Shown piece after piece: positions 12,873-61,546 of a DNA stretch of 64,000 nucleotides (positions within the stretch are counted from its first letter, which is position 1; each line of letters opens with the position of its first letter). The notes beneath the pieces are model-generated. The model ran no database searches. It was not told the DNA's origin and saw nothing but the letters and a program-made list of their open reading frames with translations. A program made the position numbers and the translations under genes. Source of the stretch: Cyanidioschyzon merolae (Eukaryota); NCBI GenBank assembly GCA_000091205.1, contig AP006499.2; one strand, given 5' to 3'.

Positions 12873-15621
12873 TATATTCTGGACCTATTTTGCACGACCA
12901 TCAGCACAAGTCATTGCAGTTTGCACCGCGACCGCTTCCTTCTCCTTTCCCGTATCTCCGACTTTCAATACGCTGGCGTCTCCTAGCCCTCCAGCTTCGA
13001 TGTCAGCAGGCGAAGGATGCCGATGGCTGCGTTCATTCGAACCCAGAGTTTCCTGCTTCCAGCCCTCATCGACGTACTTCATGCAAAGGCGGAAGTTGTG
13101 ATCTGCGCTTCTTTTAGCATTTTCATCCTTTTTGTCCACAACTCCGGTGCACCCTTCGCAGCGAGGACACTTGCCCGTTGTCCGGTGCCGCCATACGTCC
13201 ATCGCACGTCTTGCTCCGAGTGCCGCCCTGTGGCGCATGCCTGCTTGCAGTGTCGCTCGGTACACGCCCTCGACGGGTGCAGAGCGCTCCGCTCCATGCG
13301 CTCTTCAGTTTCTGTGCCCAGCGCCATACCCTGCGATCACAGGCTCGGGCTGGGCGATCCCCGCGGCAAGCACCCTCACTGCTGGGCGCGTAAACGCTCG
13401 CTGCTCGATTCGAGTACTCGGAATCCGCTCCCTCGCACGCTCTTCGTTTTTCGCGTACGCTTCCCATCGAAGCTGCCGACGAGCATCACGCGACTCGAGG
13501 TGCCGTGCCAGCTCATGAGTATTGTGCGCGCAGGTTCCATCCACTTGCGACGATGCGGGTCAGCCATCTGCGACTCCCTTCGTCTCCGGTCGCTCGCTCG
13601 CTCGCTTGCGTGTTCTTCTATCCCCATACTCGTTCGCTTCCGCTTCAGCGAAGATGGCAGGCGCGGGAGGAGAAGTCACGACTGTGGGCGTAACTCGGAC
13701 GTTTCCGATCCCGTGCCCCGGGACGGGGTGTCGGTTTCCACATGGGCGTCGGGCTTCGCCTCGGGTCTCACGGAGGCGCTGGTGCAACGCTTCGCTCTCC
13801 TTGGGCTCCTGCCGTTGCTAAGTGCACTGGATTGCAGGTTCACGAGGCCACGCATCTGTACAGCTTGCTGCTCATCGTCGCCGTGTTTCCTGTTCTGAGC
13901 AGGGGTGCGTTGGAGCTCTGATGGGGCCTTGAGGCATGTAGGGCGCTCACGACTGATAGCGGTGGATGCTGCCAGGCCATCGGTCTCGAACGAGGACACC
14001 ACGCCTCCTCGACTTTATGTGAGCGTTCTGTTTCTATCTGTTCCCTGCCTGTCGCATCTCTCTTTAGCGTCGTTCGCTTTTCGTTCCCCCAGCGGTTCAT
14101 GAGTGTCTCCGAAGTTTCGGGCGAAATTTGCGTAGTACGCTTCATGTACTCTATGCTGTCGATGGATACCTCCTCTTCTTCGATGTGCTCCTTGGCCTCC
14201 ATAGGACGTTTCCATGCCCTAATCCCTCGTGCGTGGGCGCCCACTTCGCAGCGAGGCGAAAAAGCCGCGAACCGGGGCGCGCGTACGAGCGACCTATAAA
14301 TGCGTTTACAGCAAGGCGAAAATCCATTCCATTCAGGGGCTCTGGAACAGTTCCCGAGGTGCAGAGGCTGTTTCACTCGCTCGGGTAGGCACTCGCAGGC
14401 TGCAGGTCTATAGTCTCCTCGACATGTTCGTCTTCCAGGATACTCAACGGAGGCTCACGCGCTCTGTATATCCGCCCAGCATATTCAAGTCGGCGAAGCG
14501 CCCGTCATGAAGAGCTCGTCCATGCCGTCCAGGCTGGTATCTGAGTCGTCATCCGCACGTATCCACGTCATCGAATCCTTCACGCGCCATGGGAATGAAT
14601 GCTGGCATGATCCAGGGTCGCGCGGCGTAGTTTTCCGCCCATATACACCTTTGAGTTATCCAGGCTGATTTGGGTCGCGAAGCGAATGCTGGCCTCGAAA
14701 TGCGCAACGTCGTTCGGCTATGGAGCCAAAGTGCCCGCGACGTCGATGAAAGCACAGTGCAGGTGAGGTGTGTCCCGACTACGCTTCGAGACAGTGACGG
14801 CATGAAAGGCCATCGATGCCAACGGTGCATCTACGAAGTTGTTCGGTTTCTCAGGGACCCCGATGCACTGGACGTACACGGTCCTAGGCAGGAGGTAAGC
14901 GCGCCACTGACGCATGCTGCAAAGAAGCGCATGTTTGCGGACGCGGAATCTGATATCCGGCGGGTGCGGGTGCATTTCGAAGTATCCCTTGCCGACAGTG
15001 GTGCCGTAGAATACCTCATACAAACAGCGAAGGAGGGAGTTTCCGAGATCGTATCCCGTGAGATGTAGCGCACTGCTTATTTGGGATGTGGTTTCGTTGA
15101 TGGTTGGAAAGCGAGAATATTTTGTGTTTCAAACGGAATCGATTATATGAGGTGAGGATTTGAACATACTTTCGGTATGAGCTCTTGAAGAAGTATTCGC
15201 ACGAAAACTTCCAACTTTTGCGTCGTCAACCGAGCGTAGCGGCCTGGTGCGCCCACGAGTAGCCTTGAAACATGGAGATCGGAAGCGTGCAGAATGCCTG
15301 ACTTGAGCGTGCAACGCGTAACTAAAGGAAAAGAGTTCAGGCTTCCTTGTACGAATTGCATCATGATATCGGCTATTTTAGGCAACGGTATGTGAGGATA
15401 TCTCGAATCACCTTGATGCTGGTGATGTAACGAATCCCTTCGGTGCAAAGTCGAGGGAGCCACTTTGAAGAGTCGACCGAGAATCCTAGAACGATGCATG
15501 AGTCCTGAGGCCCTCATTGCTGGACTATGAATACTCGGGTCCTGCATCTGAAAATGAGTTCGGGTGAAAAATCGAAATCGAGGAACACAGGCAGCAGCTC
15601 CGTGTTCTACTTCACTCCGAC
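12858..15621 (+). repeat. DR-A copy 1: 2.76-kb GC-rich non-coding direct repeat (full length)
   Basis: Collinear with 28111-30874 at a constant offset of 15253, with about 10 substitutions. Its 5' 1.34 kb is collinear with 18615-19951 at offset 5757, with no differences seen. There are no long or conserved ORFs. It contains (CTCG)n at ~13588. Confidence 0.9.
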
Positions 15622-18319: not shown

Positions 18320-18614
18320 TATCCAACAGTTGCCTCTGTCGAGAAAGAACGATCACCACACAACCCGAGGGCTTCTAGCGAGAATCTCCGGGCATTTTAC
18401 AGCGCACATGGAGCTGTTGCCGATCGCGGGAGCTCTGCGCCTGCACGCCGCTGCTGTGAGCTCGACGCTCGAAAAGCGATCGTGCCTTCCGAGGCGTCGC
18501 GCGTCACCACAAAATCGGTGGGTGCGCTCGAGCCAGCAACCTCGCCGATGCTGCAGCGGGCGCGCAGCTTCCGCCTATATCAGTCAAAGATAGAATAGAC
18601 CCCGTGAGGAAAGT

Positions 18615-19951
18615 CGGACGTACTCGCACTATATTCTGGACCTATTTTGCACGACCATCAGCACAAGTCATTGCAGTTTGCACCGCGACCGCTTCCTTCT
18701 CCTTTCCCGTATCTCCGACTTTCAATACGCTGGCGTCTCCTAGCCCTCCAGCTTCGATGTCAGCAGGCGAAGGATGCCGATGGCTGCGTTCATTCGAACC
18801 CAGAGTTTCCTGCTTCCAGCCCTCATCGACGTACTTCATGCAAAGGCGGAAGTTGTGATCTGCGCTTCTTTTAGCATTTTCATCCTTTTTGTCCACAACT
18901 CCGGTGCACCCTTCGCAGCGAGGACACTTGCCCGTTGTCCGGTGCCGCCATACGTCCATCGCACGTCTTGCTCCGAGTGCCGCCCTGTGGCGCATGCCTG
19001 CTTGCAGTGTCGCTCGGTACACGCCCTCGACGGGTGCAGAGCGCTCCGCTCCATGCGCTCTTCAGTTTCTGTGCCCAGCGCCATACCCTGCGATCACAGG
19101 CTCGGGCTGGGCGATCCCCGCGGCAAGCACCCTCACTGCTGGGCGCGTAAACGCTCGCTGCTCGATTCGAGTACTCGGAATCCGCTCCCTCGCACGCTCT
19201 TCGTTTTTCGCGTACGCTTCCCATCGAAGCTGCCGACGAGCATCACGCGACTCGAGGTGCCGTGCCAGCTCATGAGTATTGTGCGCGCAGGTTCCATCCA
19301 CTTGCGACGATGCGGGTCAGCCATCTGCGACTCCCTTCGTCTCCGGTCGCTCGCTCGCTCGCTTGCGTGTTCTTCTATCCCCATACTCGTTCGCTTCCGC
19401 TTCAGCGAAGATGGCAGGCGCGGGAGGAGAAGTCACGACTGTGGGCGTAACTCGGACGTTTCCGATCCCGTGCCCCGGGACGGGGTGTCGGTTTCCACAT
19501 GGGCGTCGGGCTTCGCCTCGGGTCTCACGGAGGCGCTGGTGCAACGCTTCGCTCTCCTTGGGCTCCTGCCGTTGCTGAGTGCACTGGATTGCAGGTTCAC
19601 GAGGCCACGCATCTGTACAGCTTGCTGCTCATCGTCGCCGTGTTTCCTGTTCTGAGCAGGGGTGCGTTGGAGCTCTGATGGGGCCTTGAGGCATGTAGGG
19701 CGCTCACGACTGATAGCGGTGGATGCTGCCAGGCCATCGGTCTCGAACGAGGACACCACGCCTCCTCGACTTTATGTGAGCGTTCTGTTTCTATCTGTTC
19801 CCTGCCTGTCGCATCTCTCTTTAGCGTCGTTCGCTTTTCGTTCCCCCAGCGGTTCATGAGTGTCTCCGAAGTTTCGGGCGAAATTTGCGTAGTACGCTTC
19901 ATGTACTCTATGCTGTCGATGGATACCTCCTCTTCTTCGATGTGCTCCTTG
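18615..19951 (+). repeat. DR-A copy 2: 5' half-copy (1.34 kb), identical to copy 1
   Basis: All mirrored ORF peptides are identical to copy 1. An extra ~55 bp of upstream flank (18560-18614) also matches copy 1 (12803-12857) but not copy 3. The repeat ends abruptly at 19951, with 'ctccttg|ttctaacg' versus copy 1 'ctccttg|gcctcc'. Confidence 0.9.
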
Positions 19952-27912: not shown

Positions 27913-28110
27913 TTGCTACGGAAATGTTTTGAACTGTTTCACGAATCATTGTTATTTATTTTCAAAAGTAACTCATGAAACTCTCGCAAAGAATTGAAGC
28001 GCATGTGGCCATCCTCCTGTAAGGCGCTTAGCCGTTTAAAAACCATTAATATGGCCCACGCAGATCGTCTTAGACCTATATTAATTTCAGATGGAGGAGA
28101 TCCTCGCACA

Positions 28111-30874
28111 CGGACGTACTCGCACTATATTCTGGACCTATTTTGCACGACCATCAGCACAAGTCATTGCAGTTTGCACCGCGACCGCTTCCTTCTCCTT
28201 TCCCGTATCTCCGACTTTCAATACGCTGGCGTCTCCTAGCCCTCCAGCTTCGATGTCAGCAGGCGAAGGATGCCGATGGCTGCGTTCATTCGAACCCAGA
28301 GTTTCCTGCTTCCAGCCCTCATCGACGTACTTCATGCAAAGGCGGAAGTTGTGATCTGCGCTTCTTTTAGCATTTTCATCCTTTTTGTCCACAACTCCGG
28401 TGCACCCTTCGCAGCGAGGACACTTGCCCGTTGTCCGGTGCCGCCATACGTCCATCGCACGTCTTGCTCCGAGTGCCGCCCTGTGGCGCATGCCTGCTTG
28501 CAGTGTCGCTCGGTACACGCCCTCGACGGGTGCAGAGCGCTCCGCTTCATGCGCTCTTCAGTTTCTGTGCCCAGCGCCATACCCTGCGATCACAGGCTCG
28601 GGCTGGGCGATCCCCGCGGCAAGCACCCTCACTGCTGGGCGCGTAAACGCTCGCTGCTCGATTCGAGTACTCGGAATCCGCTCCCTCGCACGCTCTTCGT
28701 TTTTCGCGTACGCTTCCCATCGAAGCTGCCGACGAGCATCACGCGACTCGAGGTGCCGTGCCAGCTCATGAGTATTGTGCGCGCAGGTTCCATCCACTTG
28801 CGACGATGCGGGTCAGCCATCTGCGACTCCCTTCGTCTCCGGTCGCTCGCTCGCTCGCTTGCGTGTTCTTCTATCCCCATACTCGTTCGCTTCCGCTTCA
28901 GCGAAGATGGCAGGCGCGGGAGGAGAAGTCACGACTGTGGGCGTAACTCGGACGTTTCCGATCCCGTGCCCCGGGACGGGGTGTCGGTTTCCACATGGGC
29001 GTCGGACTTCGCCTCGGGTCTCACGGAGGCGCTGGTGCAACGCTTCGCTCTCCTTGGGCTCCTGCCGTTGCTGAGTGCACTGGATTGCAGGTTCACGAGG
29101 CCACGCATCTGTACAGCTTGCTGCTCATCGTCGCCGTGTTTCCTGTTCTGAGCAGGGGTGCGTTGGAGCTCTGATGGGGCCTTGAGGCATGTAGGGCGCT
29201 CACGACTGATAGCGGTGGATGCTGCCAGGCCATCGGTCTCGAACGAGGACACCACGCCTCCTCGACTTTATGTGAGCGTTCTGTTTCTATCTGTTCCCTG
29301 CCTGTCGCATCTCTCTTTAGCGTCGTTCGCTTTTCGTTCCCCCAGCGGTTCATGAGTGTCTCCGAAGTTTCGGGCGAAATTTGGGTAGTACGCTTCATGT
29401 ACTCTATGCTGTCGATGGATACCTCCTCTTCTTCGATGTGCTCCTTGGCCTCCATAGGACGTTTCCATGCCCTAATCCCTCGTGCGTGGGCGCCCACTTC
29501 GCAGCGAGGCGAAAAAGCCGCGAACCGGGGCGCGCGTACGAGCGACCTATAAATGCGTTTACAGCAAGGCGAAAATCCATTCCATTCAGGGGCTCTGGAA
29601 CAGTTCCCGAGGTGCAGAGGCTGTTTCACTCGCTCGGGTAGGCACTCGCAGGCTGCAGGTCTATAGTCTCCTCGACATGTTCGTCTTCCAGGATACTCAA
29701 CGGAGGCTCACGCGCTCTGTATATCCGCCCAGCATATTCAAGTCGGCGAAGCGCCCGTCATGAAGAGCTCGTCCATGCCGTCCAGGCTGGTATCTGAGTC
29801 GTCATCCGCACGTATCCACGTCATCGAATCCTTCACGCGCCATGGGAATGAATGCTGGCATGATCCAGGGTCGCGCGGCGTAGTTTTCCGCCCATATACA
29901 CCTTTGAGTTATCCAGGCTGATTTGGGTCGCGAAGCGAATGCTGGCCTCGAAATGCGCAACGTCGTTCGGCTATGGAGCCAAAGTGCCCGCGACGTCGAT
30001 GAAAGCACAGTGCAGGTGAGGTGTGTCCCGACTACGCTTCGAGACAGTGACGGCATGAAAGGCCATCGATGCCAACGGTGCATCTACGAAGTTGTTCGGT
30101 TTCTCAGGGACCCCGATGCACTGGACGTACACGGTCCTAGGCAGGAGGTAAGCGCGCCACTGACGCATGCTGCAAAGAAGCGCATGTTTGCGGACGCGGA
30201 ATCTGATATCCGGCGGGTGCGGGTGCATTTCGAAGTATCCCTTGCCGACAGTGGTGCCGTAGAATACCTCATACAAACAGCGAAGGAGGGAGTTTCCGAG
30301 ATCGTATCCCGTGAGATGTAGCGCACTGCTTATTTGGGATGTGGTTTCGTTGATGGTTGGAAAGCGAGAATATTTTGTGTTTCAAACGGAATCGATTATA
30401 TGAGGTGAGGATTTGAACATACTTTCGGTATGAGCTCTTGAAGAAGTATTCGCACGAAAACTTCCAACTTTTGCGTCGTCAACCGAGCGTAGCGGCCTGG
30501 TGCGCCCACGAGTAGCCTTGAAACATGGAGATCGGAAGCGTGCAGAATGCCTGACTTGAGCGTGCAACGCGTAACTAAAGGAAAAGAGTTCAGGCTTCCT
30601 TGTACGAATTGCATCATGATATCGGCTATTTTAGGCAACGGTATGTGAGGATATCTCGAATCACCTTGATGCTGGTGATGTAACGAATCCCTTCGGTGCA
30701 AAGTCGAGGGAGCCACTTTGAAGAGTCGACCGAGAATCCTAGAACGATGCATGAGTCCTGAGGCCCTCATTGCTGGACTATGAATACTCGGGTCCTGCAT
30801 CTGAAAATGAGTTCGGGTGAAAAATCGAAATCGAGGAACACAGGCAGCAGCTCCGTGTTCTACTTCACTCCGAC
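28111..30874 (+). repeat. DR-A copy 3: full-length 2.76-kb direct repeat
   Basis: Collinear with copy 1 at offset 15253. About 10 substitutions are seen as single-aa changes in the mirrored ORFs. The flanks are unrelated to those of copy 1. Confidence 0.9.
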
Positions 30875-36861: not shown

Positions 36862-39051
36862 AAATTCGCTGCATTTGGCGCATTCAAGAAATTATAGCTG
36901 TGCAGCTCGCTTTTCTTGACAGCCAGTCTTGCCTCTGCAACAGTTTACAGATGCTGAGAATATGGTAGCACGATCCCGATATGGCGATTGTGTTCGATGC
37001 GACTTCGCCCAAACGCACTTTTCGGGATTTGTGTCGATGGGAACTATGCATGCAGCGCTCGTCTGGAAAAGCGCCGCGTTTGTGCCCTCGCACCCAAGGC
37101 AACACAGATGACGGACAAAGCTTTTAAAGTTTGACAGAACGTTTACATTGACTATTGATTCCAGGTTGTGGGATGGATATTGGCATTCGGGAAAGAGCCC
37201 ACCATGCTGCGCCCTGCTTCGAAGTTGCATCACGCAGACTTATTCTTGGATATACTGGTCGTTTCATGAGCTCCATCGTTCGCCGAGCCTGCCCTAGTGG
37301 CCCACGGTAGCGCCCATAGCGTTTGCGCGGATGCATCGCCGAGACAGAGCGGCTTTGCCATACCGCTGGAGGCGTCGGCTTGAGGCGTGGATCATCCGAC
37401 ACGGGATCGGGATTCATCGTCATAACGTGAGCCTGCGAGCTGCGCAGAAAGACACACTGCCTGCCGGAGCGGAACGCGATATGCTACGAGTCCACCGCGA
37501 CCAGGGCGACGCCCAGACACAGTATACCCGCTCCTAGTCCCAGAATAAAGTGCGTTGCGGACGAGCTGCTCGGGTCTCGCCGCATCACGACTCGATGCAG
37601 AGGCGTATGGAGCGTCTACCAGACAGACTCGTTAGGCTCTAGGGACATTCCGCATAGAAGGTAAACTTTCGAAAATACGGAAAACTTTGCTCCTTCCAAC
37701 GTTTACAGTAGAGGGAGAAAGAAAATTTAAAAAGTTGCTATTTAATGGTTAGTTTCGCTTCCTTTATGGGCGACGCTTTGTCGTCCATCATGCAGGATCG
37801 GTATATCGCACCAAACTCGCTAGGGGTGCACGGAGGCTGGCAATGCTCCAAGCAAGGATCGAGATCTCTCACGTTGTTATTCCTAGTGATACGACATACA
37901 TGACTCTAGGGAGTCTTGCTGGAACGCACCGACGATGTGCGGAATCTGTATATGGACTGAGTGCTCCTGCAAAGATCTCTCGTGACGCAGGATCGATGCG
38001 CTTAACCAGACGCGCCGAAAGTGTCGATGCTGACAGTTGCCGGGCCATGGAATCTACTCTCTATCGGCATTATTGCAGTTCCTAGTTCAAGAATATCCTC
38101 ATAATCAGCACCGGTATCGCCCGAGTCCTGTTTTTGTGTTGATTGTGATCCTCGAATGATAGAGAACAGGGCAGCCTCGTAAATTCTCGTGGCAGTACTT
38201 GGAACGATAATGGGGACATACGCTCGTGCGGGGATCACTGTACTGTAAGCTGGAGCCGAGTCGACCATCGGCATTCACATCGCTGTGTGTTTCGAACACA
38301 GCAGTCGGCAAACACCACGTCAGTGCACTTATATAAGTATCATTGTAAACTGTTATGACCAGTCGGCAGCTTCCAGATTTCGCAATTCGAACGCTGTCGG
38401 CACTCGAGCTTCAATTGAGCAGATGAACACGGAAAGCAGTTTCAGAGTTCACGCACGATACAGTTTAGAATCTGCACTCACAGAGGTTTCAGATTTTTGT
38501 AAATGGTACATTATGTGGATATTTCAGGTACCATTGAGCGGATGCGCATTCGAAACTGACCGAAGCAAGGCCTACTTGCAGCGAATCGCTGAATCTGACA
38601 CAAACGCACGCGGAGAACGAGCGTTGAAACTTAATCATCCGCAGATCACGTGCTTAACTGCCCCGAAAAAGCCCGAAACGTGGTCTGCTCCAGCAATGCC
38701 TGACCGAGAGTGTGCGGTCAGGCATATGCCAGGGTTCGATTAGAGCGAATCGATGGCATACAGAATTGTATCGAGTCGACGAGATTATATTCTATCCAGA
38801 AGAGCAAATAGGATTATAGACGCTTTAGCAACGAGTGATACCGGTCATCACCAGCTCCTATCTTTGAAATGAGGGTTCATTGTACTGAAAAAGAGGCAAA
38901 ACTCTACCCGCGGCTCTCGAACTGCGAGTGAAACATTTTCCAACGCTGTAGTCCGACATCGAAATAGTTGACCAGCATCGCGTTGCCGGCACTGCGTTCG
39001 CTTGCTGTGCACAGCTTATGAGTAGACGACAGCTACCGGTTTTGCACAGAA

Positions 39052-42000
39052 TTGGTAGGTCGATACTGCATGAGTGATCCGTTCCGAAACAAGCCAAATG
39101 CAAGAGCAACTGTTGAACAAGACGATTTGAAAGCAGTGAACGCTTTCTTCCGTACGCTTGGTCACGTCTCGTGCGATCCGAGTGCGATCGTTGACATCGG
39201 ACATTCGTTACTCTCTCTTCTAGAGAGTTCCCTGACAGACGTGGATTTAGAAAGTGACCTTTTCGATCTCATAGGGAATCCAGAGGTTGCCGCGGAGCTC
39301 CTCAAACTACGTCCAAGCGTTCAAAGGCACAGTAGCTCCATAAGAGCAGAACTAACTGGCAGCTATGGACGAGAACGAACAAAAAAGACGAAGCAGCAGA
39401 GTCCGGAGAAGTTTCTACCCAGTTCGAGTCTGAGCGGCTTACAATATTCTTCTCCCTTCGAAGCAAAAGGCAGAACTCGCACGGATAGTGCCACCCATGG
39501 CGGGGCGTTCAGGCAACGAGCTCCTTTTTTATCCGGCTCGGTTACCTCAACCACGTCCGCGACTGCAGACTCCATCCAAGAGCTCTCGCCAGACTTTCCC
39601 GGCAGCGACAATCCTTTCGTTGCTAAGCCTACATATCCCGCACCGAAATCAAGCAACATCGAGTTCCGGTCAGAGGAGCTTTATAAGGAAATCTTTGTAC
39701 CGCCACCGCAGCCTTGCTCTGCGGCCCAGCAGCGGTTGAAGGTTGCGGAATGTTTGGACCCTCCGTTGCGAAGAATTTTCGAGCACACAGAGCATTTCAA
39801 CCCTGTACAGAGCACCGTGTTTTCTGCGGTCTACCACACGAGCGAGAACCTGCTCATCTGTGCGCCAACCGGAGCTGGCAAGACAAATATCGCACTTCTG
39901 GCTATTGGGAGGGAGATTCTCCACCGAATGCATGAGCGTGCATGGCGTTGCGTGTATATCGCACCCATGCGTGCTCTGGCCTCGGAGATCGTGCGGAAGC
40001 TTGCGAACTCGCTGAGATCGCTATCCGTCGAAGTGTTGGAATACACCGGGGATACGAATCCGACGCTTCCTAGCTTGAGACGAAGTCAGGTGTTAGTGAC
40101 CACTCCCGAGAAATGGGACGTTCTCTCACGAAATAGTGCGCATTGGCAATCGGGGCTCGCTGCTTCGATTCGTTTGCTCGTCATTGATGAGATCCACCTT
40201 CTACACGATAATCGAGGTCCGGTACTCGAAGCTGTGGTTGCAAGAACGTTACGCTTAGCGGAAATTCAGCAAACGAGAGTTCGCATCGTCGGATTGTCAG
40301 CAACGCTGCCGAATTATGTGGATATCTCGGCGTTCCTCCGGGTGACTCCCGAAAAAGGGCTTTTTTACTTCGACGCTAGCTATCGACCTGTCCCCTTGGG
40401 TCAACGCCTCATTGGAATGCGAAAAAGGCGAGATCGAGGTTCCGAGTCTGCCCTTATCGAGGTCTGTTACGAAAAAGCTCGCTCATTCGTTACATGTGGG
40501 CACCAGGTCATCATCTTTGTCCACTCACGAAAGAAGACCAAACTCCTTGCCGAGGACCTGCTGAAGATGGCACGGGAGCGGAACGAGGCGTCTCTTTTCG
40601 TACAGTCAGAGCGCAGCCAAGATCAATTGCCTAGAACGATTCGATCAGCGGACCTGCGGATGCTCTTAATGCATGGCGTTGGTATTCACCACGCTGGTCT
40701 CGCTCGTTCAGATCGCATCGCGACCGAGACGCACTTCCGAGATGGGTCGATCACTTTGTTGGTAAGCACAGCCACTCTCGCATGGGGTGTCAATCTGCCT
40801 GCCAGGGCCGTCATCATCTACGGCACGAAAATCTATGATGCAAGTCGCGGGGGTTTTGTTGACATTGGCGTCCTCGATATTTTACAGATTTTCGGAAGAG
40901 CAGGTCGGCCGGAATACGACAGCTATGGAGAAGGAATCATACTGACGGAAGAGCAACGTCTTCCGTTTTTCTACCGACTCCTCAGCGTCCAGATGCCGAT
41001 CGAGAGTCAGATGTTGAACGGGTTCGCTCTTGTTGATCATCTGAATGCCGAAATCGCCACGGGGCACGTCACGTCGGAGCACGAAGCCCTGGCGTGGCTG
41101 GCATGTCTGTACCTTTCGGTACGCCTTGCCAAGAATCCACTTCATTATGGTATTGCTTGGGAAGACGTGCAGCGAGATCCAACGCTCTCAGCTTTTAAAT
41201 ATCAGCTGCTGAAGAAATCGATTGATGCTCTTGTTATAGCGGGCCTCGTTTCTGTTGATAGCGAGCTGTCGCAGCTGGAACCAACAGACTGGGGCATCGT
41301 AGCGAGTAGATTTTACGTATCGCACCAAACGATGCAGATCTTCAAAGAGAATCTGAGACAGGATGCGTCTGCGAGTCAAGTGATTCGATGCATCAGCTCG
41401 TCATCAGAATTCGAAAATTTGGCCTTACGAGAAGAAGAAATCCCTGAACTGGAAACCCTCTATGCTGACGCCTGCCCATATGAATATCCGCGGCATGCAA
41501 ACATCGCGATTAGATCCAAATTAGAGGATGAGTCGGAATATTTCTTGAATGGCTACACAGGCAAGGTATACATTCTTCTTCAGTCATATATATCACGAGC
41601 TACTGTGCATGATTTTGCATTGCTTTCAGACATGCGATATATCGAGGAGTCAGCAACAAGACTCTTCGGTGCAGTATTTGAGATTGCTCTCCGTCAAGGC
41701 TGGCCTGAACTTGCTCGAAACGCCAGTGAGTTGGCGCGAGCCGTTGAGCGACGTCTCTGGCCTTTTGAACATCCCCTTACACAAATGCAGAACGTTCAAG
41801 CCTCTGTTGTGGACCTTATCAAGAACAGGAATATACCGCATGATATTCAGATTTTGCGAAGACTATCGAACGAGCAATGGACGGATTTACTTGGTTCACC
41901 TTCTCACGTGCAAATCATGGCAGAAATAGTGTCGGAGTTTCCGTACTTAGAGGTATCTGGTCACCTGTCCGCGCTGGCGGAGCAGCTCTTTCGTATCCAA

Positions 42001-44646
42001 ATAAGCTGCACACCGTGCTGGAAGTGGGGATCCCGGCTACACAGTACACGCACGAGCGAAGCTGCACGGTACACGCTCATGATCAACGATGTGGATGCGG
42101 GTGTAATGGTCTATTCTCAGAGTGTCACATTCTCGAAGAAGCAAGTTCAAGAGCGCGAGACATCATTTTTCGAAATTTATCTGAGCCATGGCGGTCAATG
42201 GCCACAAACATTTGAAGCGGTGTTCCTGTCGGAGGAGTGGCTCGGGGCAGACCAGAAATACGTCCTCCAAACAGATGCCCCTGGTCCGCCACAGAGCCAG
42301 CTAATACGGACGCCACTTCTGAACCTGCGCCTGCTGGGCCGGGAGGCACTCGGATTCGGCCTCGGTGCAGCGTGCGACACATTATTTCCAGGTCTGTCGC
42401 ATCTCAACCCGATCCAGACGCAAATTTGCCACAGCGTTTTGCACTCGGACGCGAGCTTGTTCATTGGGATGCCACCGAACGCTGGGAAGGATCTTGTGCT
42501 GTTACTGTGCATCCTGCGTCAACTACGCGCCAAGCGCAGTGCCCACTGCCGAGTGCTCTACCTCAGTCTTGCTTCGAATAATATGGATGACATGGACGCA
42601 TGTCTCCGCAGGTGGCTCTCCGTGTTGGATGTTCGCCTGCTTGACCTGAGCGATGGCTGCAAGGCAGGGATTCATGACCCAATGGTCGTCTGTTGCGTGA
42701 CGCCCAAGCAGCTGCTCGACTGGCTCCTCGATAAAACAGAGTCAGCGATTGCGTTCTTTGACAGTGTGGATCTTGTGCTGGTCGACAACATGCACCACTT
42801 GAACGAGGACAATGGTGTACTCGCTGAGAGTGCTCTAGTTGCCGTGCGTGCCGTTACTCGAAGATCGACGCGACTGGTTGCCTTTGGGAATCTCATTGGT
42901 AACGCAATGGATCTGGCTTCATGGCTATCTACAAGTCGTATGTACAATTTCGCACTGGAGCATAGCCCTACGCCGATAGCGTTTAGTGTGATCCCTTTCC
43001 GAGAGCGGAACATCGCAGAACGTTTTGCGCGAATGGATCAAACCATTCGTAAGATCGTTCAACATCACAACGCGGAGCAAGTTATTGTGTTGGTGCAGTC
43101 GGATAGGGAATGCATCGAGACCGCTCGTCGGCTGCTGCACGTGGCTGCAGCTGACGGGACATCCCATAGAGCGGGCATAGAAGGACATCTACTAGATGTT
43201 TCTGTTCTGAATGCGGATATTGGCCAGTTCCTTGCTTTCGGGATCGGTGTTCTGGTAGGTGAAATGAATAACGTGCTTCAGAGCCTCATGCAAGATCTTT
43301 TCTCAGCCCGGAAACTTTCATGGTTAGCCGTAGCTTTTCCACTTCTAGATGAGCTGCGATGCAGTGCACCAGTTGTTGTTGTGAAAGGCACGGAGTGGCA
43401 CCTTACAGCTGGCGGAACATGGAAGCATTTGAGTCCAAGCGTACTATTGAAAATCCTGCAACGCTGCGGTTGCCAGGAAATACAACGCGGTTCATTTTAC
43501 CTCCTCGCTTCAGAATCGCGCAAGGCATACTTTCAGAAGCTACTAGAATGTGAAGTTCCCGTCGAGGCAGGCATTCGCACTGAGGAAGACCTTGGCTTGT
43601 TTCTGTGTCAGATGGTTGCAGGCGATCTTGTGTCGGAGCCAGAGGAGAGCTTTCAGCTGACGCGGGAAACGTATCTTTCGCGGCGTCTGGCCCAGAATCC
43701 GAGCTGGTATCCCTGGGTAACCGCGAACGACAATGAAATGCGAACAGTTGTGGAAACGTCTCTCTTGAGGATGGCCAGCATTGGTCTCCTTAGAATCCAA
43801 GCGAGTAGCTCAGCGGTGCTAACCCTCGAACCAACCACGCTTGGTAAGCTGGCTTGTTTCTTCTCTCTGAGACCAATTTTTTTCGAACGCATTAACAATT
43901 TACTGAGTGAGATGAATCAAGAAAAACGCGAGCAGAAAGCCCATGATTTGGCGCATGAAGACCATGCTTGTATGCCCGATTCTTGCAAAGTGGAGGATTC
44001 GATTCCAGACGCTGCAAAGGAAAGCGACAATGGCCCGGCGACCCAAGTGATTCCATATAATGTCGTCCGCTTCGAGACGGCCGCCAGAGAACTGCTCTAC
44101 ATAGGTCTGCGCGAGATAGCACCGCACTGCTCGAGCATGGAGCTGGCGGTGGCGGCGGCAGTCGTAGCGGCTGAAAAGGGTTTTGATCCAGCCGTGTCCC
44201 CCTTGCTAAGATTCGCTAAGGTAGAACGGAAGGAGCACAGGCGAAGCTCCCATGCGCGCCCAACCCCTCGAATTGCGCTGAACGTTAGCAGCGTTGAACG
44301 TGTTCAGCTGAACTGGATCCAGGTGAGTCTTTGCTTTCGGAAAATCGAGCTGGAAGGCATCAACAGGACTCAGCCCGAACGCATATACGCATCGGCACTA
44401 CCTGCTTCCTGCCCGGTTACCAAATTGGTCTGCTTCGCATTTTCTGCTGTGACTGAAGAACTCTTGGGATATGGGATTTCGGAAGAAACTGTTCTCCACG
44501 TAGATCTTGAACTACGGCGACATATTCCCGCTGGTGGCAAACTCAAGCTGAAGCTTTTCTGTTTTCCGGTGGAGCTGACGCATGAAATAGGTGTGAGCTT
44601 GAGCGACGAGCAAATGAGCGCGTCGTCTTCCACCAGAAAGCAGTAA
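39052..44646 (+). CDS. Brr2/ASCC3(Slh1)-family Ski2-like DExH helicase with two helicase-Sec63 cassettes, the second highly degenerate
   Basis: Cassette 1 has '[15 protein letters not shown]', '[27 protein letters not shown]' and '[16 protein letters not shown]', which closely match Brr2/ASCC3. Cassette 2 has 'NPIQTQ' but a Walker A of '[12 protein letters not shown]' and a DEVH replaced by 'VDNMHH'. It is 1864 aa in a single ORF. Confidence 0.85.
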   Translation: [1864 protein letters not shown]

Positions 44647-59149: not shown

Positions 59150-61546
59150 GTGAGCATAGGCCGAAGAAGACGCGCTCCAGGGCGAAAAGCGCCCCACAAA
59201 ATTGATATGGTGCGCCGCAAAGACTGGAAACAGCGCAAACAAAGCAGCATACCTTCTCTTTACCGGGATGTCTTCGAGAGGGCCGAAAGGGAGTTTGCGA
59301 ATGAGCAGCGAGAATATGTGTTAGCGTTGGTCGCCGAAAACCGAGCACGGTTACAACGCGAGAGATCTGGGACGCCACTGCCTGTGGCCTCCGCAGAGAA
59401 CGAAATCCTTCGACGCAGAATCGACCAGTCACCAACCAGTCGCGACGATAATGGAAAGCTACGACTCCAGAGATGCCGGAAAATTGTTTTTCCGCATGTC
59501 GACCCTCTTCCGGACTCAACAGCGTATATTCCAATTAGAAGAAATTTCGCGGCATCGGACATTGTCACGAGCAACCTTTTCTTGCCCTATCTCGGGGACA
59601 CAAAGAGGAATATCGAGTCTGCATACCAAATTATTTCTGCGGTAGATGAAATTCGTCGACTGCAAGAAAACCAGCACGACGGGAGTGGTGATGAGATAGA
59701 CACCGGGTCGCTGGCTGCCTGGAGACGAGGATTTTCCCATGGAATACCAGTGCCGCAAAACTTGGGGCCAGTGTTAGAGTGCGGCTCGCTGTCCATAATG
59801 GAAGAGCGAGATTCTGTTGCGTTGTGGACCTGGATGCAGTCGCAGAAAATGGCGCTCTACTTGCTTCGAAAGACTGCGAGCCAATTCGGTGAAGTCCAGG
59901 AAGCGCTGCAGTATTTAAGCACATACACTTCAACTAGCCTCACGGATCTGAAGTCAGTGCTTGCCGAGCAAGAGATTCAGAACAGAGAACAAGTTGCACC
60001 AGTCCATGGTCGGTCGCCAAATCAACATTGTTCAAATGTATGTCTTGCCGAAGACAGCACGGATTCCCTGCTGGGTATCTGCGAGTCCGACACGATGCGC
60101 AGCTTGTTTTGTAGGCGATGCTATATGTACGACTGTGCAATGCACGGCTCACATCACCCACTGCCAAGAGTGAGAAGACCACGTTTAGGATTGTTCGAAT
60201 TCCCAAGTGCAGAGGTCACATTTTGTAGTGGTCGCTGCTTTCGACGACTCTGGCCGAACGGTATCGGTAGTATCGAAGGTGAGCTGCGCTCAGATGCCAC
60301 CCGAAGATCGGAGACACCAGAAAAAGCGGATCGTATCGATTTTGATCTCAATCAAGTGGTGTGTGCCGCATACGAGTTGCCCTTGCTCCAGACGGGTCAG
60401 GAAATATTTGATAATGATTTTTGTCGTATCCGGCAAGTTTGCCTTCCATGGCGATCATGCGTGGAATGTGCGATGCTCGCGATGAAATATTATCGTGAGG
60501 GCGGCATGCAGAAAAAGCCCTCTGGACAAGTGAAAAGCAACGACATGGTGCAGACTAACCATGAAGACGCTGCCTCTCACCAGACGATGAGTGCCGCTTC
60601 CGAACTGAGACCTAATGCAGTTCGGCACGTTACCAGTACTGCAGCGCCCGACCACAGGAATGACGCCAGCTCCAGTGGCCTTGTCAGCGATGTTAGCCAC
60701 TTCGCACTCGCAAACGGAAGTGTCGACCGCCTCCACGGACAGCAGAGACGCTCCTGTGATATTCGGCTGTGCAGGGCTTCGCGTCCTATGAACCAATTAT
60801 CTGCAGGACGCTCGTTCGTGTATCGCCCATGCGATCACGAGGGCGCTTGCTCGAAGGAAACCTGTGAGTGTGTCATCAAGGGGCGGTTCTGTGAAAAATA
60901 CTGTTGCTGTGCATCGGTTGTGATGGGTGAATCGTGTCCCAGGGCCTTTAAAGGCTGCAAATGTCGAACGAAATGTAACAACAAGAAATGTCCCTGCTTT
61001 GCGGCGGACCGCGAATGCGACCCGGACTCTTGCACCGGCTGTGGTGCTCGCGACCCGGAGGATAAGCACAGGACTTGTGAAAACATGAACTTACAGCTGG
61101 GCATCCAGAAACGACTTTTACTCGGTCGCTCAGATGTCCACGGATGGGGTATCTTTGCCAGTGCGGTCATTCCCAAAGGTGCCTTTATTGGAGAGTACTG
61201 TGGCGAAATTGTGAGCCAGCTCGAGGCGGAATGGCGAGGCCGGATTCATGATCATACAACTGGCGTATCATACCTTTTCGATCTCAACGACGAGCAATGC
61301 ATCGATGCCCATCGGGCCGGCAAGCGCACAAAGTTTATCAATCATAGCCGGATTCCGCCTCGAAAGAATTGCGTGGTGCGTTATCGGATTGTGAACGGGG
61401 ATATTCGAGTTGCGCTCTATGCAGATCGTCAGATCGAAGCAGGCGAGGAGCTATTCTTCGATTACGGCTATGAATCGGGTACGAACGCGCCATTGTGGGC
61501 GCGCGCTGAGGGCGGAAGCTCTAGCACGCTAGCGAAAGCCTCTTAG
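59150..61546 (+). CDS. E(z)/EZH2-type histone H3K27 methyltransferase (PRC2 catalytic subunit): CXC + SET
   Basis: The CXC region 'CDHEGACSKETCECVIKGRFCEKYCCCASVVMGESCPRAFKGCKCRTKCNNKKCPCFAADRECDPDSCTGCG' matches E(z). The SET region 'LLLGRSDVHGWGIFASAVIPKGAFIGEYCGEIVSQLEAEWRG...KFINHSRIPPRKNCVV...GEELFFDYGY' matches EZH2 'LLLAPSDVAGWGIFIKD...GEELFFDYRY'. Confidence 0.9.
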   Translation: MSIGRRRRAPGRKAPHKIDMVRRKDWKQRKQSSIPSLYRDVFERAEREFANEQREYVLALVAENRARLQRERSGTPLPVASAENEILRRRIDQSPTSRDDNGKLRLQRCRKIVFPHVDPLPDSTAYIPIRRNFAASDIVTSNLFLPYLGDTKRNIESAYQIISAVDEIRRLQENQHDGSGDEIDTGSLAAWRRGFSHGIPVPQNLGPVLECGSLSIMEERDSVALWTWMQSQKMALYLLRKTASQFGEVQEALQYLSTYTSTSLTDLKSVLAEQEIQNREQVAPVHGRSPNQHCSNVCLAEDSTDSLLGICESDTMRSLFCRRCYMYDCAMHGSHHPLPRVRRPRLGLFEFPSAEVTFCSGRCFRRLWPNGIGSIEGELRSDATRRSETPEKADRIDFDLNQVVCAAYELPLLQTGQEIFDNDFCRIRQVCLPWRSCVECAMLAMKYYREGGMQKKPSGQVKSNDMVQTNHEDAASHQTMSAASELRPNAVRHVTSTAAPDHRNDASSSGLVSDVSHFALANGSVDRLHGQQRRSCDIRLCRASRPMNQLSAGRSFVYRPCDHEGACSKETCECVIKGRFCEKYCCCASVVMGESCPRAFKGCKCRTKCNNKKCPCFAADRECDPDSCTGCGARDPEDKHRTCENMNLQLGIQKRLLLGRSDVHGWGIFASAVIPKGAFIGEYCGEIVSQLEAEWRGRIHDHTTGVSYLFDLNDEQCIDAHRAGKRTKFINHSRIPPRKNCVVRYRIVNGDIRVALYADRQIEAGEELFFDYGYESGTNAPLWARAEGGSSSTLAKAS

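What the first reader, a model, noticed from the sequence alone, without database searches (positions are those of the whole stretch)
39052..44646. Brr2/ASCC3-family helicase with an unusually eroded second cassette and short N-terminus
Cassette 1 is textbook Brr2/ASCC3 (DEIH, 'SATLPNYVDISAFLRV'). Cassette 2 keeps the 'NPIQTQ' Q-motif but has Walker A 'GMPPNAGKD' (lysine kept, Thr to Asp) and 'DNMH' instead of DEVH. That is more degenerate than the already inactive C-cassette of spliceosomal Brr2, while ASCC3/Slh1 needs both cassettes active. At 1864 aa with only about 260 aa before the first RecA domain, it lacks most of the Brr2 N-terminal plug region. It may be a divergent lineage-specific paralogue rather than the core spliceosomal Brr2.
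Basis: partly seen in the sequence, partly recalled or inferred. Interest (0 to 1): 0.5.

Follow-up and report, generated by a model that had tools for sequence, protein, structure and literature searches.

The report
ASCC3/Slh1 helicase with dead second cassette
This gene of the red alga Cyanidioschyzon merolae is its copy of the ribosome-rescue helicase ASCC3/Slh1, not the splicing helicase Brr2, and its second motor unit has lost every catalytic motif but is still conserved, although yeast and human need both units active.

Summary
Window 39070-44646 (+) is an intronless 1858-aa gene, identical to C. merolae 10D BAM82053.1, annotated only as "RNA helicase".

- **Cassette 1** has every helicase motif intact.
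- **Cassette 2** has lost motifs I, Ia, Ib, II, III, IV, V and VI. Only the Q motif and the P-loop Gly-Lys remain.

The interpretation needs correcting. Cassette 1 is ASCC3/Slh1-type, not Brr2-type:
- all 120 best database hits are ASCC3/DExH14;
- it scores about 70 bits more on an ASCC3 profile than on a Brr2 profile;
- at 18 diagnostic positions it has the ASCC3 residue at 8 and the Brr2 residue at 1.

The N-terminal region is about as long as that of yeast Slh1, and no exon is missing.

Cassette 2 is a conserved pseudo-helicase. Its open reading frame and its degenerate motifs are shared by three genera that are only about 50% identical overall. It still models as a Ski2-like cassette. Cyanidium caldarium shows an intermediate state.

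Most likely this is a single-engine version of the ribosome-collision helicase, with cassette 2 kept as a scaffold. That role is inferred, not shown.

I could not obtain the sequence or accession of C. merolae's published Brr2. A small chance therefore remains that this gene is that protein.

The parts
39070..44646 (+). Complete intronless coding sequence, 1858 aa plus stop. It equals C. merolae 10D BAM82053.1 / XP_005538089.1 / UniProt M1VKK8, 'RNA helicase'.
   Evidence: zero differences from P0134. In-frame stop at 39019-39021.
39070..39774 (+). N-terminal region, aa 1-235. Poorly conserved (27-34% identity among the three genera). No Pfam domain, no Brr2 plug.
39247..39312 (+). Motif LESDLFDLIGNPEVAAELLKLR (aa 60-81). 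This is an ASCC3-flavoured remnant of the PWI-like N-terminal domain.
   Evidence: A regular expression written after seeing the motif hits 13 of 23 ASCC3-type proteins including 4 Cyanidiophyceae, and 0 of 26 Brr2-type proteins. In Nematostella ASCC3 the motif lies inside PF18149.
39775..40989 (+). Cassette 1, RecA1-RecA2 (aa 236-640), with all motifs intact: Q FNPVQS, I CAPTGAGKTN, Ib TTPEKWD, II DEIH, III SAT, IV FVHSRKKT, V TLAWGVNLPA, VI QIFGRAGRP. Presumed to be the only ATP-driven motor.
   Evidence: Identity among the three genera is 71-81%. ASCC3-type.
40990..42279 (+). Cassette 1 winged helix (aa 641-735) and Sec63 unit (aa 736-1070).
   Evidence: Pfam SNRNP200_wHTH 45.5 bits and Sec63 187.6 bits. 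Identity 54-76%.
42280..42369 (+). Linker between the cassettes (aa 1071-1100).
42370..42969 (+). Cassette 2 pseudo-RecA1 (aa 1101-1300). Q motif LNPIQTQ is kept. Walker A is GMPPNAGKD. Motif Ib is VTPKQLLD. Motif II is DNMH. Motif III is FGNLIGNA.
   Evidence: PPNAGK and the DN of motif II are invariant in the three genera; identity 39-56%.
42970..43539 (+). Cassette 2 pseudo-RecA2 (aa 1301-1490). Motif IV is VLVQSDREC, IVa GIGVLVGEM, V LRCSAP, VI QRCGCQE, so both arginines of motif VI are lost. This is the best-conserved part of cassette 2.
   Evidence: Identity 49-64%. The model has an alpha/beta fold here, with 10-residue block mean pLDDT mostly 55-85.
43540..43869 (+). Cassette 2 winged helix and start of the helical region (aa 1491-1600).
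43870..44643 (+). Cassette 2 tail (aa 1601-1858). A shrunken Sec63-like unit: a low-confidence segment, a short helical bundle and a C-terminal beta-sandwich. Weakly conserved (21-34% identity).
   Evidence: No Pfam Sec63 hit here.

Best explanation
The gene is the Cyanidioschyzon merolae orthologue of the pan-eukaryotic tandem Ski2-like helicase ASCC3 (yeast Slh1/Rqt2, plant DExH14). In yeast and human this is the ATPase of the RQT/ASC-1 complex, which pulls stalled, collided ribosomes apart.

Shown here:
- The N-terminal cassette is of the ASCC3/Slh1 type and is fully intact.
- The C-terminal cassette has lost all catalytic and nucleic-acid-binding helicase motifs, so it cannot be a conventional ATPase or translocase.
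- That cassette is still kept as an open, purifying-selected, cassette-shaped domain in at least three genera of the Cyanidioschyzon group.
- A less eroded state survives in Cyanidium caldarium.

Inferred:
- The protein works as a single-engine helicase. The N-terminal cassette supplies all ATP-driven 3'-to-5' translocation.
- The C-terminal cassette survives as a pseudo-enzyme scaffold. In yeast Slh1 this cassette packs through RecA2 against the N-terminal cassette, holds Cue3 and Rqt4, and touches RACK1 on the 40S head.
- The architecture has therefore converged on that of the sister paralogue Brr2 (active N cassette, inert C cassette).
- The cellular role is most likely still ribosome-associated quality control, or another ASCC3-type task. 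This was not tested.
For: Identity: no differences from BAM82053.1.

Family, from whole-protein searches:
- PDB phmmer ranks human ASCC3 at 1008 bits, yeast Slh1 at 911, human Brr2 at 899 and yeast Brr2 at about 745.
- The best 120 of 7334 database hits are the Cyanidiales orthologues followed only by ASCC3/DExH14 proteins. IMG names near-identical metagenome copies 'activating signal cointegrator complex subunit 3'.

Family, from cassette 1 (reference sets: 24 Brr2 and 37 ASCC3 N-cassettes taken from metagenome loci and named proteins):
- It scores 602-622 bits on the ASCC3 N-cassette profile and 534-547 on the Brr2 profile. The margin of +68 to +79 equals that of left-out divergent ASCC3 members, for example the red alga Compsopogon at +79.5.
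- At 18 discriminating columns it has 8 ASCC3 residues, 1 Brr2 residue and 9 neither, like divergent ASCC3 controls and unlike divergent Brr2 controls.
- In the NJ tree Brr2 is monophyletic without the Cyanidiophyceae in 185 of 200 bootstraps. Brr2 plus Cyanidiophyceae group together in 3 of 200.
- The N-terminal motif is ASCC3-flavoured.

Cassette 2 is dead: all motifs are lost in the alignment with canonical ASCC3 C-cassettes.

Cassette 2 is retained:
- Identity among the three genera is 39-64% in its RecA domains, against 27-34% in the N-terminal region.
- PPNAGK and the DN of motif II are invariant.
- The ORF is intact in five further full-length alleles from other assemblies, apart from the reference.
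- The AF2 model (pLDDT 65, pTM 0.57) has RecA1-RecA2-WH-helical-beta-sandwich order and matches Brr2 helicase structures at E = 1e-31.
- It scores 196-230 bits on C-cassette profiles against 97-135 on N-cassette profiles, so it descends from a C-cassette.

Origin of cassette 2:
- The Cyanidium orthologue groups with the three proteins in 97 of 100 bootstraps and shares a 5-residue deletion.
- It keeps APPGSGKS and GRAGR, has DDLH in place of DExH, and its C-cassette is ASCC3-type by +60 bits.
- In the exhaustive search with cassette 2, 23 of the best 30 representatives are ASCC3-type. No other lineage shares the variant.

Scaffold roles of the Slh1 C-cassette are described in PMC9938168.
Against: - No functional evidence of any kind was available for this protein.
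- In yeast, single Walker mutations in either Slh1 cassette abolish RQT activity, and the C-cassette is proposed as the mRNA-pulling motor. [quoted passage not shown] A version without C-cassette activity may therefore not perform the canonical reaction.
- Support for an exact ASCC3-plus-Cyanidiophyceae clade is modest (68 of 200). The group sits at the base of the ASCC3 clade, as long branches tend to.
- The C. merolae C-cassette itself scores about equally on Brr2-type and ASCC3-type C-cassette profiles.
- I did not check whether C. merolae has Hel2/ZNF598, Cue3/ASCC2 or Rqt4/TRIP4.
- The published 'Cm Brr2' is described as about 300 residues shorter at the N-terminus and lacking plug and PWI. 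That description would also fit this protein, and I could not obtain its accession.
Confidence: 0.6

Rival explanations
1. It is the spliceosomal Brr2 of C. merolae. Either it is a very divergent true Brr2, or it is an ASCC3-derived paralogue that took over U4/U6 unwinding in this reduced spliceosome. Its active-N, inert-C layout is the Brr2 layout.
For: - The architecture is Brr2-like in function: one live and one dead cassette.
- Black et al. 2023 describe Cm Brr2 as about 300 residues shorter at the N-terminus, without plug and PWI. This protein is 278 aa shorter than human Brr2 and 305 aa shorter than yeast Brr2.
- The C-cassette scores as well on a Brr2 C-cassette profile (196-230 bits) as on the ASCC3 one.
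- I found no Cyanidiales Brr2 among the Brr2-type representatives I could check.
Against: - Cassette 1 is ASCC3-type by every test.
- Reciprocal best hits go to ASCC3 and Slh1. From my knowledge of the method rather than a tool result, this would fail the criterion normally used to call Brr2.
- Brr2 is reported present in at least 36 of the 40 eukaryotic lineages surveyed. SNRNP200 is scored present in C. merolae by an independent survey.
- The Cyanidium orthologue has an ASCC3-type C-cassette.
- My failure to find a Cyanidiales Brr2 is uninformative, because no tool could rank or reach it.
Confidence: 0.08
2. It is an ASCC3-derived helicase that has left ribosome quality control and been repurposed. 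Possible new roles are another RNA or DNA remodelling task that needs one motor, such as ASCC3-like DNA unwinding for repair or mRNP or rRNA remodelling. Cassette 2 would serve as a new interaction platform.
For: - Loss of an activity that yeast RQT requires.
- Strong divergence from canonical ASCC3: 34% identity overall, and neither the Cyanidium nor the C. merolae protein appears in the other's best 120 hits.
- The first roughly 200 residues of animal ASCC3, which bind ASCC2 (abstract of PMC7608686), have no counterpart here.
- Human ASCC3 is already multifunctional.
Against: - Cassette 1, its winged helix and its Sec63 unit are well conserved (54-81% identity). In yeast these are the parts that clamp the 40S mRNA entry site.
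- The N-terminal region of yeast Slh1 is similarly short.
- Nothing in the sequence points to a specific new function.
Confidence: 0.22
3. Cassette 2 is simply decaying, or the gene model is wrong: a dying domain or gene, a sequencing error, or missing N-terminal exons.
For: - The tail (aa 1601-1858) and the N-terminal region are weakly conserved, at 21-34% identity.
- The Cyanidium orthologue has lost the second Sec63 unit altogether.
Against: - A 770-residue reading frame is kept open in three genera that are about 50% identical overall, and in every full-length allele sampled.
- The RecA2 part is 49-64% identical, with invariant degenerate motifs.
- Between strains there are 9 synonymous and 8 non-synonymous differences. 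That is roughly dN/dS 0.3 on very few sites.
- There is an in-frame stop upstream and the orthologue N-termini are co-linear.
- C. merolae has only a few dozen introns.
Confidence: 0.05

Closest known systems
Human ASCC3 (ASC-1 complex helicase; PDB 8alz)
   Same: Best PDB sequence match at 1008 bits. Tandem Ski2-like cassettes. ASCC3-type N-cassette. The ASCC3-flavoured N-terminal LF-D/E-L-x-G motif is present.
   Different: [quoted passage not shown] Here cassette 2 lacks every catalytic motif. ASCC3 has a roughly 400-residue N-terminal region whose first 207 residues bind ASCC2. Here that region is about 235 residues, with no counterpart of the first part. The second Sec63 unit is shrunken.
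Yeast Slh1/Rqt2 (RQT complex; PDB 7zpq)
   Same: Second-best PDB match at 911 bits, well above yeast Brr2 at about 745. The N-terminal region is of similar length (query 205 aligns with Slh1 248). Same domain order.
   Different: Slh1 needs the Walker motifs of both cassettes, and its C-cassette is proposed to pull the mRNA. Here only the N-cassette can hydrolyse ATP.
Brr2 / SNRNP200 (U5 snRNP helicase)
   Same: Same superfamily and domain order. Same functional layout: an active N-cassette followed by a catalytically inert, structurally retained C-cassette. The cassette 2 model superposes on Brr2 structures.
   Different: Cassette 1 is not Brr2-type. There is no plug domain. The Brr2 C-cassette keeps GxGKT and DExH and binds nucleotide (abstract of PMC8220420, and the alignment). 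Here these are PPNAGKD and DNMH.
Cyanidium caldarium orthologue KAK4536865.1 (P0140)
   Same: Groups with the C. merolae protein in 97 of 100 NJ bootstraps. Shares a 5-residue deletion and local signatures such as WRC-V/I-Y-I/V-APM. Its cassette 2 is also degenerating.
   Different: It keeps Walker A APPGSGKS and motif VI GRAGR, has DDLH, and lacks the second Sec63 unit. It is 1681 aa, and a second strain is 1690 aa. This is an intermediate or parallel stage.
Plant DExH14 and the red-algal Compsopogon ASCC3 (P0004)
   Same: After the two Cyanidiales orthologues P0002 and P0003, the next-best hit is Compsopogon P0004 at 1075 bits, followed by plant DExH14 (Populus P0005) at 1060 bits.
   Different: Both cassettes are canonical (GAPTGSGKT, DEVH, GRAGRPQ in cassette 2). 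The erosion is therefore not a general red-algal trait.

Membership tests
ASCC3 / Slh1 (RQT helicase) orthologous group | N-terminal cassette groups by sequence with ASCC3/Slh1 and not with Brr2 | tested here: met
   Profile log-odds +68 to +79 bits. Signature residues 8 ASCC3 against 1 Brr2. Brr2 is monophyletic without it in 185 of 200 bootstraps. All best database and PDB hits are ASCC3 or Slh1.
ASCC3 / Slh1 (RQT helicase) orthologous group | Two tandem Ski2-like cassettes, each RecA1-RecA2-WH-Sec63 | tested here: met
   Cassette 1 is complete by Pfam. Cassette 2 is recognisable by sequence up to the winged helix and by model and Foldseek. Its Sec63 unit is reduced and not detected by Pfam.
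ASCC3 / Slh1 (RQT helicase) orthologous group | Both cassettes carry intact ATPase and helicase motifs. This is a functional hallmark that separates the group from Brr2. | tested here: not met
   Motifs I, Ia, Ib, II, III, IV, V and VI of cassette 2 are all lost. For this reason I file it as a variant by descent, not as a typical member.
ASCC3 / Slh1 (RQT helicase) orthologous group | ASCC3-type N-terminal region | tested here: inconclusive
   An ASCC3-flavoured motif at aa 60-81 is absent from 26 Brr2-type proteins, but the regular expression was written after seeing the motif. There is no Pfam or PDB match to the N-terminal region. The ASCC2-binding first part is missing.
ASCC3 / Slh1 (RQT helicase) orthologous group | Complex with Cue3/ASCC2 and Rqt4/TRIP4, and splitting of ubiquitinated collided ribosomes | not testable with these tools
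   Requires the whole C. merolae proteome and experiments.
Brr2 / SNRNP200 | Brr2-type N-terminal cassette | tested here: not met
   It is 45% identical to the human Brr2 N-cassette fragment, against 58-79% for Brr2 orthologues from diverse eukaryotes.
Brr2 / SNRNP200 | N-terminal plug and PWI-like domains | tested here: not met
   No PF21188 or PF18149 hit even at E = 1. Only a short ASCC3-flavoured PWI-like remnant is present.
Brr2 / SNRNP200 | Inactive but nucleotide-binding C-cassette that retains GxGKT and DExH | tested here: not met
   The inactive part is met. The motifs are PPNAGKD and DNMH. Nucleotide binding is not testable here.
Brr2 / SNRNP200 | Stable component of the U5 snRNP, bound by the Prp8 Jab1 domain | not testable with these tools
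   The accession of the AP-MS-validated 'Cm Brr2' was not available in the held texts.
HFM1 / Mer3 | Single Ski2-like cassette with one Sec63 unit | tested here: not met
   Two cassettes are present. No HFM1 or Mer3 protein appears among the best hits.

The most novel reading that the evidence does not exclude
C. merolae and its closest relatives have no separate Brr2. On this reading, this ASCC3-derived helicase has converged on the Brr2 layout (live N-cassette, inert C-cassette, short N-terminus without plug). It would then be the 'Cm Brr2' that co-purifies with U4/U6 and U5 components. That would be a paralogue replacement of an essential spliceosomal motor in a drastically reduced spliceosome.
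Probability: 0.06. Interest if true: 0.85.

Novelty: new variant of a known kind. Interest (0 to 1): 0.45.

Why it matters
Which cassette of Slh1/ASCC3 does the mechanical work in splitting collided ribosomes is an open question. Best et al. 2023 propose the C-cassette but state that the roles need clarification. Jia et al. 2023 leave open whether one or both cassettes translocate.

A lineage whose orthologue keeps a pristine N-cassette and has dismantled every catalytic motif of the C-cassette, while still conserving that cassette as a domain, is a natural single-engine mutant. There are two outcomes:
- If it still rescues stalled ribosomes, the N-cassette can be sufficient and the C-cassette's essential role is architectural.
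- If it does not, the lineage has rewired or lost RQT.

It also shows the same outcome arising in both paralogues of an ancient duplication, since Brr2 lost C-cassette activity long ago. Cyanidium gives an intermediate state that could order the steps of pseudo-enzyme formation.

There is a practical point as well. This protein is easy to mistake for Brr2 in inventories of the reduced C. merolae spliceosome.

Tried and rejected
**1. Finding a second Brr2-family gene of C. merolae.**
- Literature: the accession of 'Cm Brr2' is not in the held text of Black 2023, Reimer 2017 or Hudson 2015.
- Stark 2015 is not held.
- The tree file of Qiu 2018 is truncated before the C. merolae label.
- Accession and locus-tag searches found nothing.

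**2. Metagenome scan.** I scanned with a family-wide pattern (W-G-[VI]-N-[LF]-P-A, 30 residues, G-R-A-G-R-P). I reused the loci as Brr2 and ASCC3 reference sets.

**3. Brr2-type representatives from the exhaustive search.** I checked them for a short N-terminus or a C. merolae-like composition. They were yeasts, Rosa, Porphyridium, Piptocephalis, a cercozoan and unnamed compact protists. One has a plug domain and one has a myosin neighbour. Each feature speaks against the published Cm Brr2: it is described as lacking the plug, and C. merolae lacks myosin (my knowledge).

**4. Unused search.** I left the last large protein search unused. No available query could place a divergent Cyanidiales Brr2 among the best 120 of several thousand conserved Brr2 clusters.

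**5. N-terminal region against PDB.** A profile of this region matched only the residues just before cassette 1, so it was uninformative.

**6. dN/dS between strains.** There are only 17 nucleotide differences, too few to analyse by region.

**7. Discriminating columns at an 85% threshold.** These gave only 3 columns. I relaxed the threshold to 60-70% and added controls.

**8. HFM1/Mer3 and Hel308-type helicases.** Rejected, because the protein has two cassettes.
Full report
**What is there.** The ORF caller lists 39052..44646 (+) from a TTG. The first ATG is at 39070, which gives 1858 residues. An in-frame stop lies 17 codons upstream, at 39019-39021. The translation is identical to P0134, which is BAM82053.1 / XP_005538089.1 / UniProt M1VKK8, 'RNA helicase', of Cyanidioschyzon merolae 10D, on a record of 1,232,258 bp. 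At the five sites where the Logan allele P0001 differs, the window carries the 10D residues. The window is therefore nuclear DNA of an almost intron-free red alga. The neighbours are ordinary nuclear genes: a PPR protein, an RPA/RADX-like protein, a trehalose-phosphatase and an E(z)-type SET protein.

**The observation.**
- Pfam finds DEAD twice, but Helicase_C, the winged helix and Sec63 only once, all in cassette 1.
- I aligned cassette 2 with canonical ASCC3 C-cassettes from a red alga, a plant, animals and an amoebozoan. The Q motif is kept. Motif I is GMPPNAGKD, Ib VTPKQLLD, II DNMH, III FGNLIGNA, IV VLVQSDREC, V LRCSAP and VI QRCGCQE. Nothing needed for Mg-ATP hydrolysis, for the arginine fingers or for strand binding remains.

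**No exon is missing.** The two closest relatives are P0002 (an unnamed species of the same group, 53% identical, 1844 aa) and Cyanidiococcus yangmingshanensis P0003 (49%, 1845 aa). They start at the same place and are co-linear throughout. Together with the upstream stop, and the few dozen introns in the whole genome, this makes the N-terminus complete.

**Which family.**
- Against PDB sequences the order is human ASCC3 at 1008 bits, yeast Slh1 at 911, human Brr2 at 899 and yeast Brr2 at about 745.
- Against 5.8 billion proteins, the best 120 hits after the Cyanidiales orthologues are all ASCC3 or plant DExH14.
- IMG names near-identical metagenome copies 'activating signal cointegrator complex subunit 3'.

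To test this properly I needed Brr2 and ASCC3 sets from many eukaryotes. A metagenome scan with a family-wide motif pattern gave 120 loci. Their long ORFs separate cleanly by identity to a 470-residue human Brr2 N-cassette fragment:
- Brr2 orthologues are 58-79% identical.
- ASCC3 N-cassettes are 45-56%.
- ASCC3 C-cassettes are 36-40%.
- The C. merolae N-cassette is 45% identical.

Results with these sets:
- Profiles built from 24 Brr2 and 37 ASCC3 N-cassettes score the three Cyanidiales N-cassettes at 534-547 and 602-622 bits respectively. The margin of +68 to +79 bits equals that of left-out divergent ASCC3 members (+64 to +93; Compsopogon +79.5). It is opposite in sign to left-out Brr2 members.
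- At 18 columns that discriminate the two families, C. merolae has the ASCC3 residue at 8, the Brr2 residue at 1 and neither at 9. Divergent ASCC3 controls behave the same way (8/3/8 and 8/2/9). Divergent Brr2 controls give 1/10/7 to 1/14/3.
- In NJ trees rooted with C-cassettes, Brr2 is monophyletic without the Cyanidiophyceae in 185 of 200 bootstraps. Brr2 plus Cyanidiophyceae occurs in 3 of 200. The exact ASCC3-plus-Cyanidiophyceae clade is recovered in 68 of 200, with the group at the base of the ASCC3 clade.
- The N-terminal region has the motif LESDLFDLIGNPEVAAELLKLR. A regular expression for it, written after the fact, hits 13 of 23 ASCC3-type proteins including 4 Cyanidiophyceae, and 0 of 26 Brr2-type proteins. 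In Nematostella ASCC3 the motif lies inside the PWI-like domain PF18149.
- The N-terminal region is about as long as that of yeast Slh1 (query 205 aligns with Slh1 248), so its shortness is unremarkable on this side of the family.

**Cassette 2 is a retained pseudo-helicase.**

Identity among the three genera:

| Region | Identity |
|---|---|
| RecA domains of cassette 1 | 71-81% |
| Sec63-1 | 54-64% |
| Pseudo-RecA1 | 39-56% |
| Pseudo-RecA2 | 49-64% |
| C-terminal tail | 21-34% |
| N-terminal region | 27-34% |

- The degenerate motifs are themselves conserved. PPNAGK and the DN of motif II are invariant.
- Five further full-length alleles from other assemblies keep the frame open. Amino-acid polymorphisms cluster in the N-terminal region and the tail.
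- Between strains there are 9 synonymous and 8 non-synonymous changes, too few to analyse by region.
- An AlphaFold2 model built on an eight-sequence alignment has moderate confidence (mean pLDDT 65, pTM 0.57). It shows two alpha/beta domains, a winged helix, a short helical bundle and a C-terminal beta-sandwich. Foldseek matches it to Brr2 helicase structures at E about 1e-31.
- On profiles, cassette 2 scores 196-230 bits with C-cassette models and 97-135 with N-cassette models. It therefore descends from a C-cassette. It no longer discriminates between Brr2-type and ASCC3-type C-cassettes.

**Distribution and history.**
- An exhaustive search of 1.84 billion cluster representatives with cassette 2 found one close cluster (representative P0002) and a fragment. 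After those come only canonical proteins at 27% identity or less. Of the best 30, 23 are ASCC3-type, matched in their C-cassette.
- One of them is Cyanidium caldarium KAK4536865.1. Its N-cassette groups with the three proteins in 97 of 100 bootstraps and shares a 5-residue deletion.
- Its cassette 2 is intermediate. Walker A is APPGSGKS, motif VI GRAGR is kept, DDLH replaces DExH, and motifs Ib, III and V are lost. There is no second Sec63 unit. The protein is 1681 aa, and 1690 aa in a second strain. Its C-cassette is ASCC3-type by 60 bits.
- The red alga Compsopogon has two canonical cassettes.
- The erosion therefore happened within Cyanidiophyceae. I did not obtain a Galdieria sequence.

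**How it most likely works.**
- In yeast, Walker mutations in either Slh1 cassette abolish ribosome splitting.
- The N-cassette clamps the 40S subunit at the mRNA entry site.
- The C-cassette packs through RecA2 on the N-cassette, holds Cue3 and Rqt4, touches RACK1, and is proposed to pull the mRNA (PMC9938168).
- Human ASCC3 uses both cassettes as ATPases (PMC10076317).

The C. merolae protein cannot use cassette 2 as a motor. The part of cassette 2 it conserves best is RecA2, which in yeast forms the inter-cassette and Cue3 interface. My best reading is a single-engine ASCC3/Slh1. The N-cassette would translocate, and cassette 2 would persist as a scaffold, a layout convergent with Brr2. The family assignment and the catalytic death are shown. 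The scaffold role and the cellular pathway are inferred.

**What remains open.** C. merolae is reported to have a Brr2 that co-purifies with snRNPs and whose N-terminal region is about 300 residues shorter, without plug and PWI. SNRNP200 is scored present in an independent survey. I could not obtain that protein's accession or find a Cyanidiales Brr2 with the tools (details are under 'tried and rejected'). Brr2 is nearly universal and this protein is ASCC3-type, so I put the chance that this gene is the only family member, acting as Brr2, at about 6-8%.

**Verdict.** This is a real and correctly observed feature. Its interpretation should change from 'odd Brr2-like paralogue' to 'ASCC3/Slh1 orthologue with a conserved pseudo-helicase C-cassette'. 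I found no description of it in the searchable literature. It is a new variant of a known kind and of moderate interest. It bears directly on the unresolved division of labour between the two Slh1/ASCC3 cassettes.

Noticed in passing
window 12803-15500, 18560-19951, 28056-30753: Three copies of a dispersed repeat, 99.8-99.9% identical over 1.4-2.6 kb. The segments are GC-rich with strongly negative AT skew. Each copy carries the same 293-aa ORF (13017-13898, 18774-19655, 28270-29151), which has no Pfam hit and a low-complexity translation, so it is probably not a real protein.
   Followed up: partly
P0140 (Cyanidium caldarium KAK4536865.1) and P0307; not in the window: The Cyanidium orthologue has an intermediate C-cassette: the P-loop and motif VI are kept, DDLH replaces DExH, and motifs Ib, III and V are lost. 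It lacks the second Sec63 unit in two strains. Neither this protein nor the C. merolae protein appears in the other's best 120 hits, so the two have diverged greatly.
   Followed up: partly
window 40732-40734 (codon 555): The 10D reference has His at residue 555 (ETHFRDG). All five other full-length alleles have Leu, and the related species have Met or Leu. This is either a strain-specific substitution in cassette 1 or an error in the reference.
   Followed up: no
window 59150-61546 (+): An E(z)-type histone methyltransferase gene (SET, preSET_CXC and Ezh2_MCSS domains). Other neighbours include a PPR protein (148-2391) and a RADX/RPA-like protein (10254-12872).
   Followed up: no
P0291 and P0219 (Porphyridium purpureum Brr2); not in the window: Porphyridium has two annotated U5 200-kDa helicase entries, of 2536 and 2001 aa, in one 90% cluster. 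Its Brr2 N-cassette is only 53% identical to the human one, below the 58-79% seen for other Brr2 orthologues.
   Followed up: no
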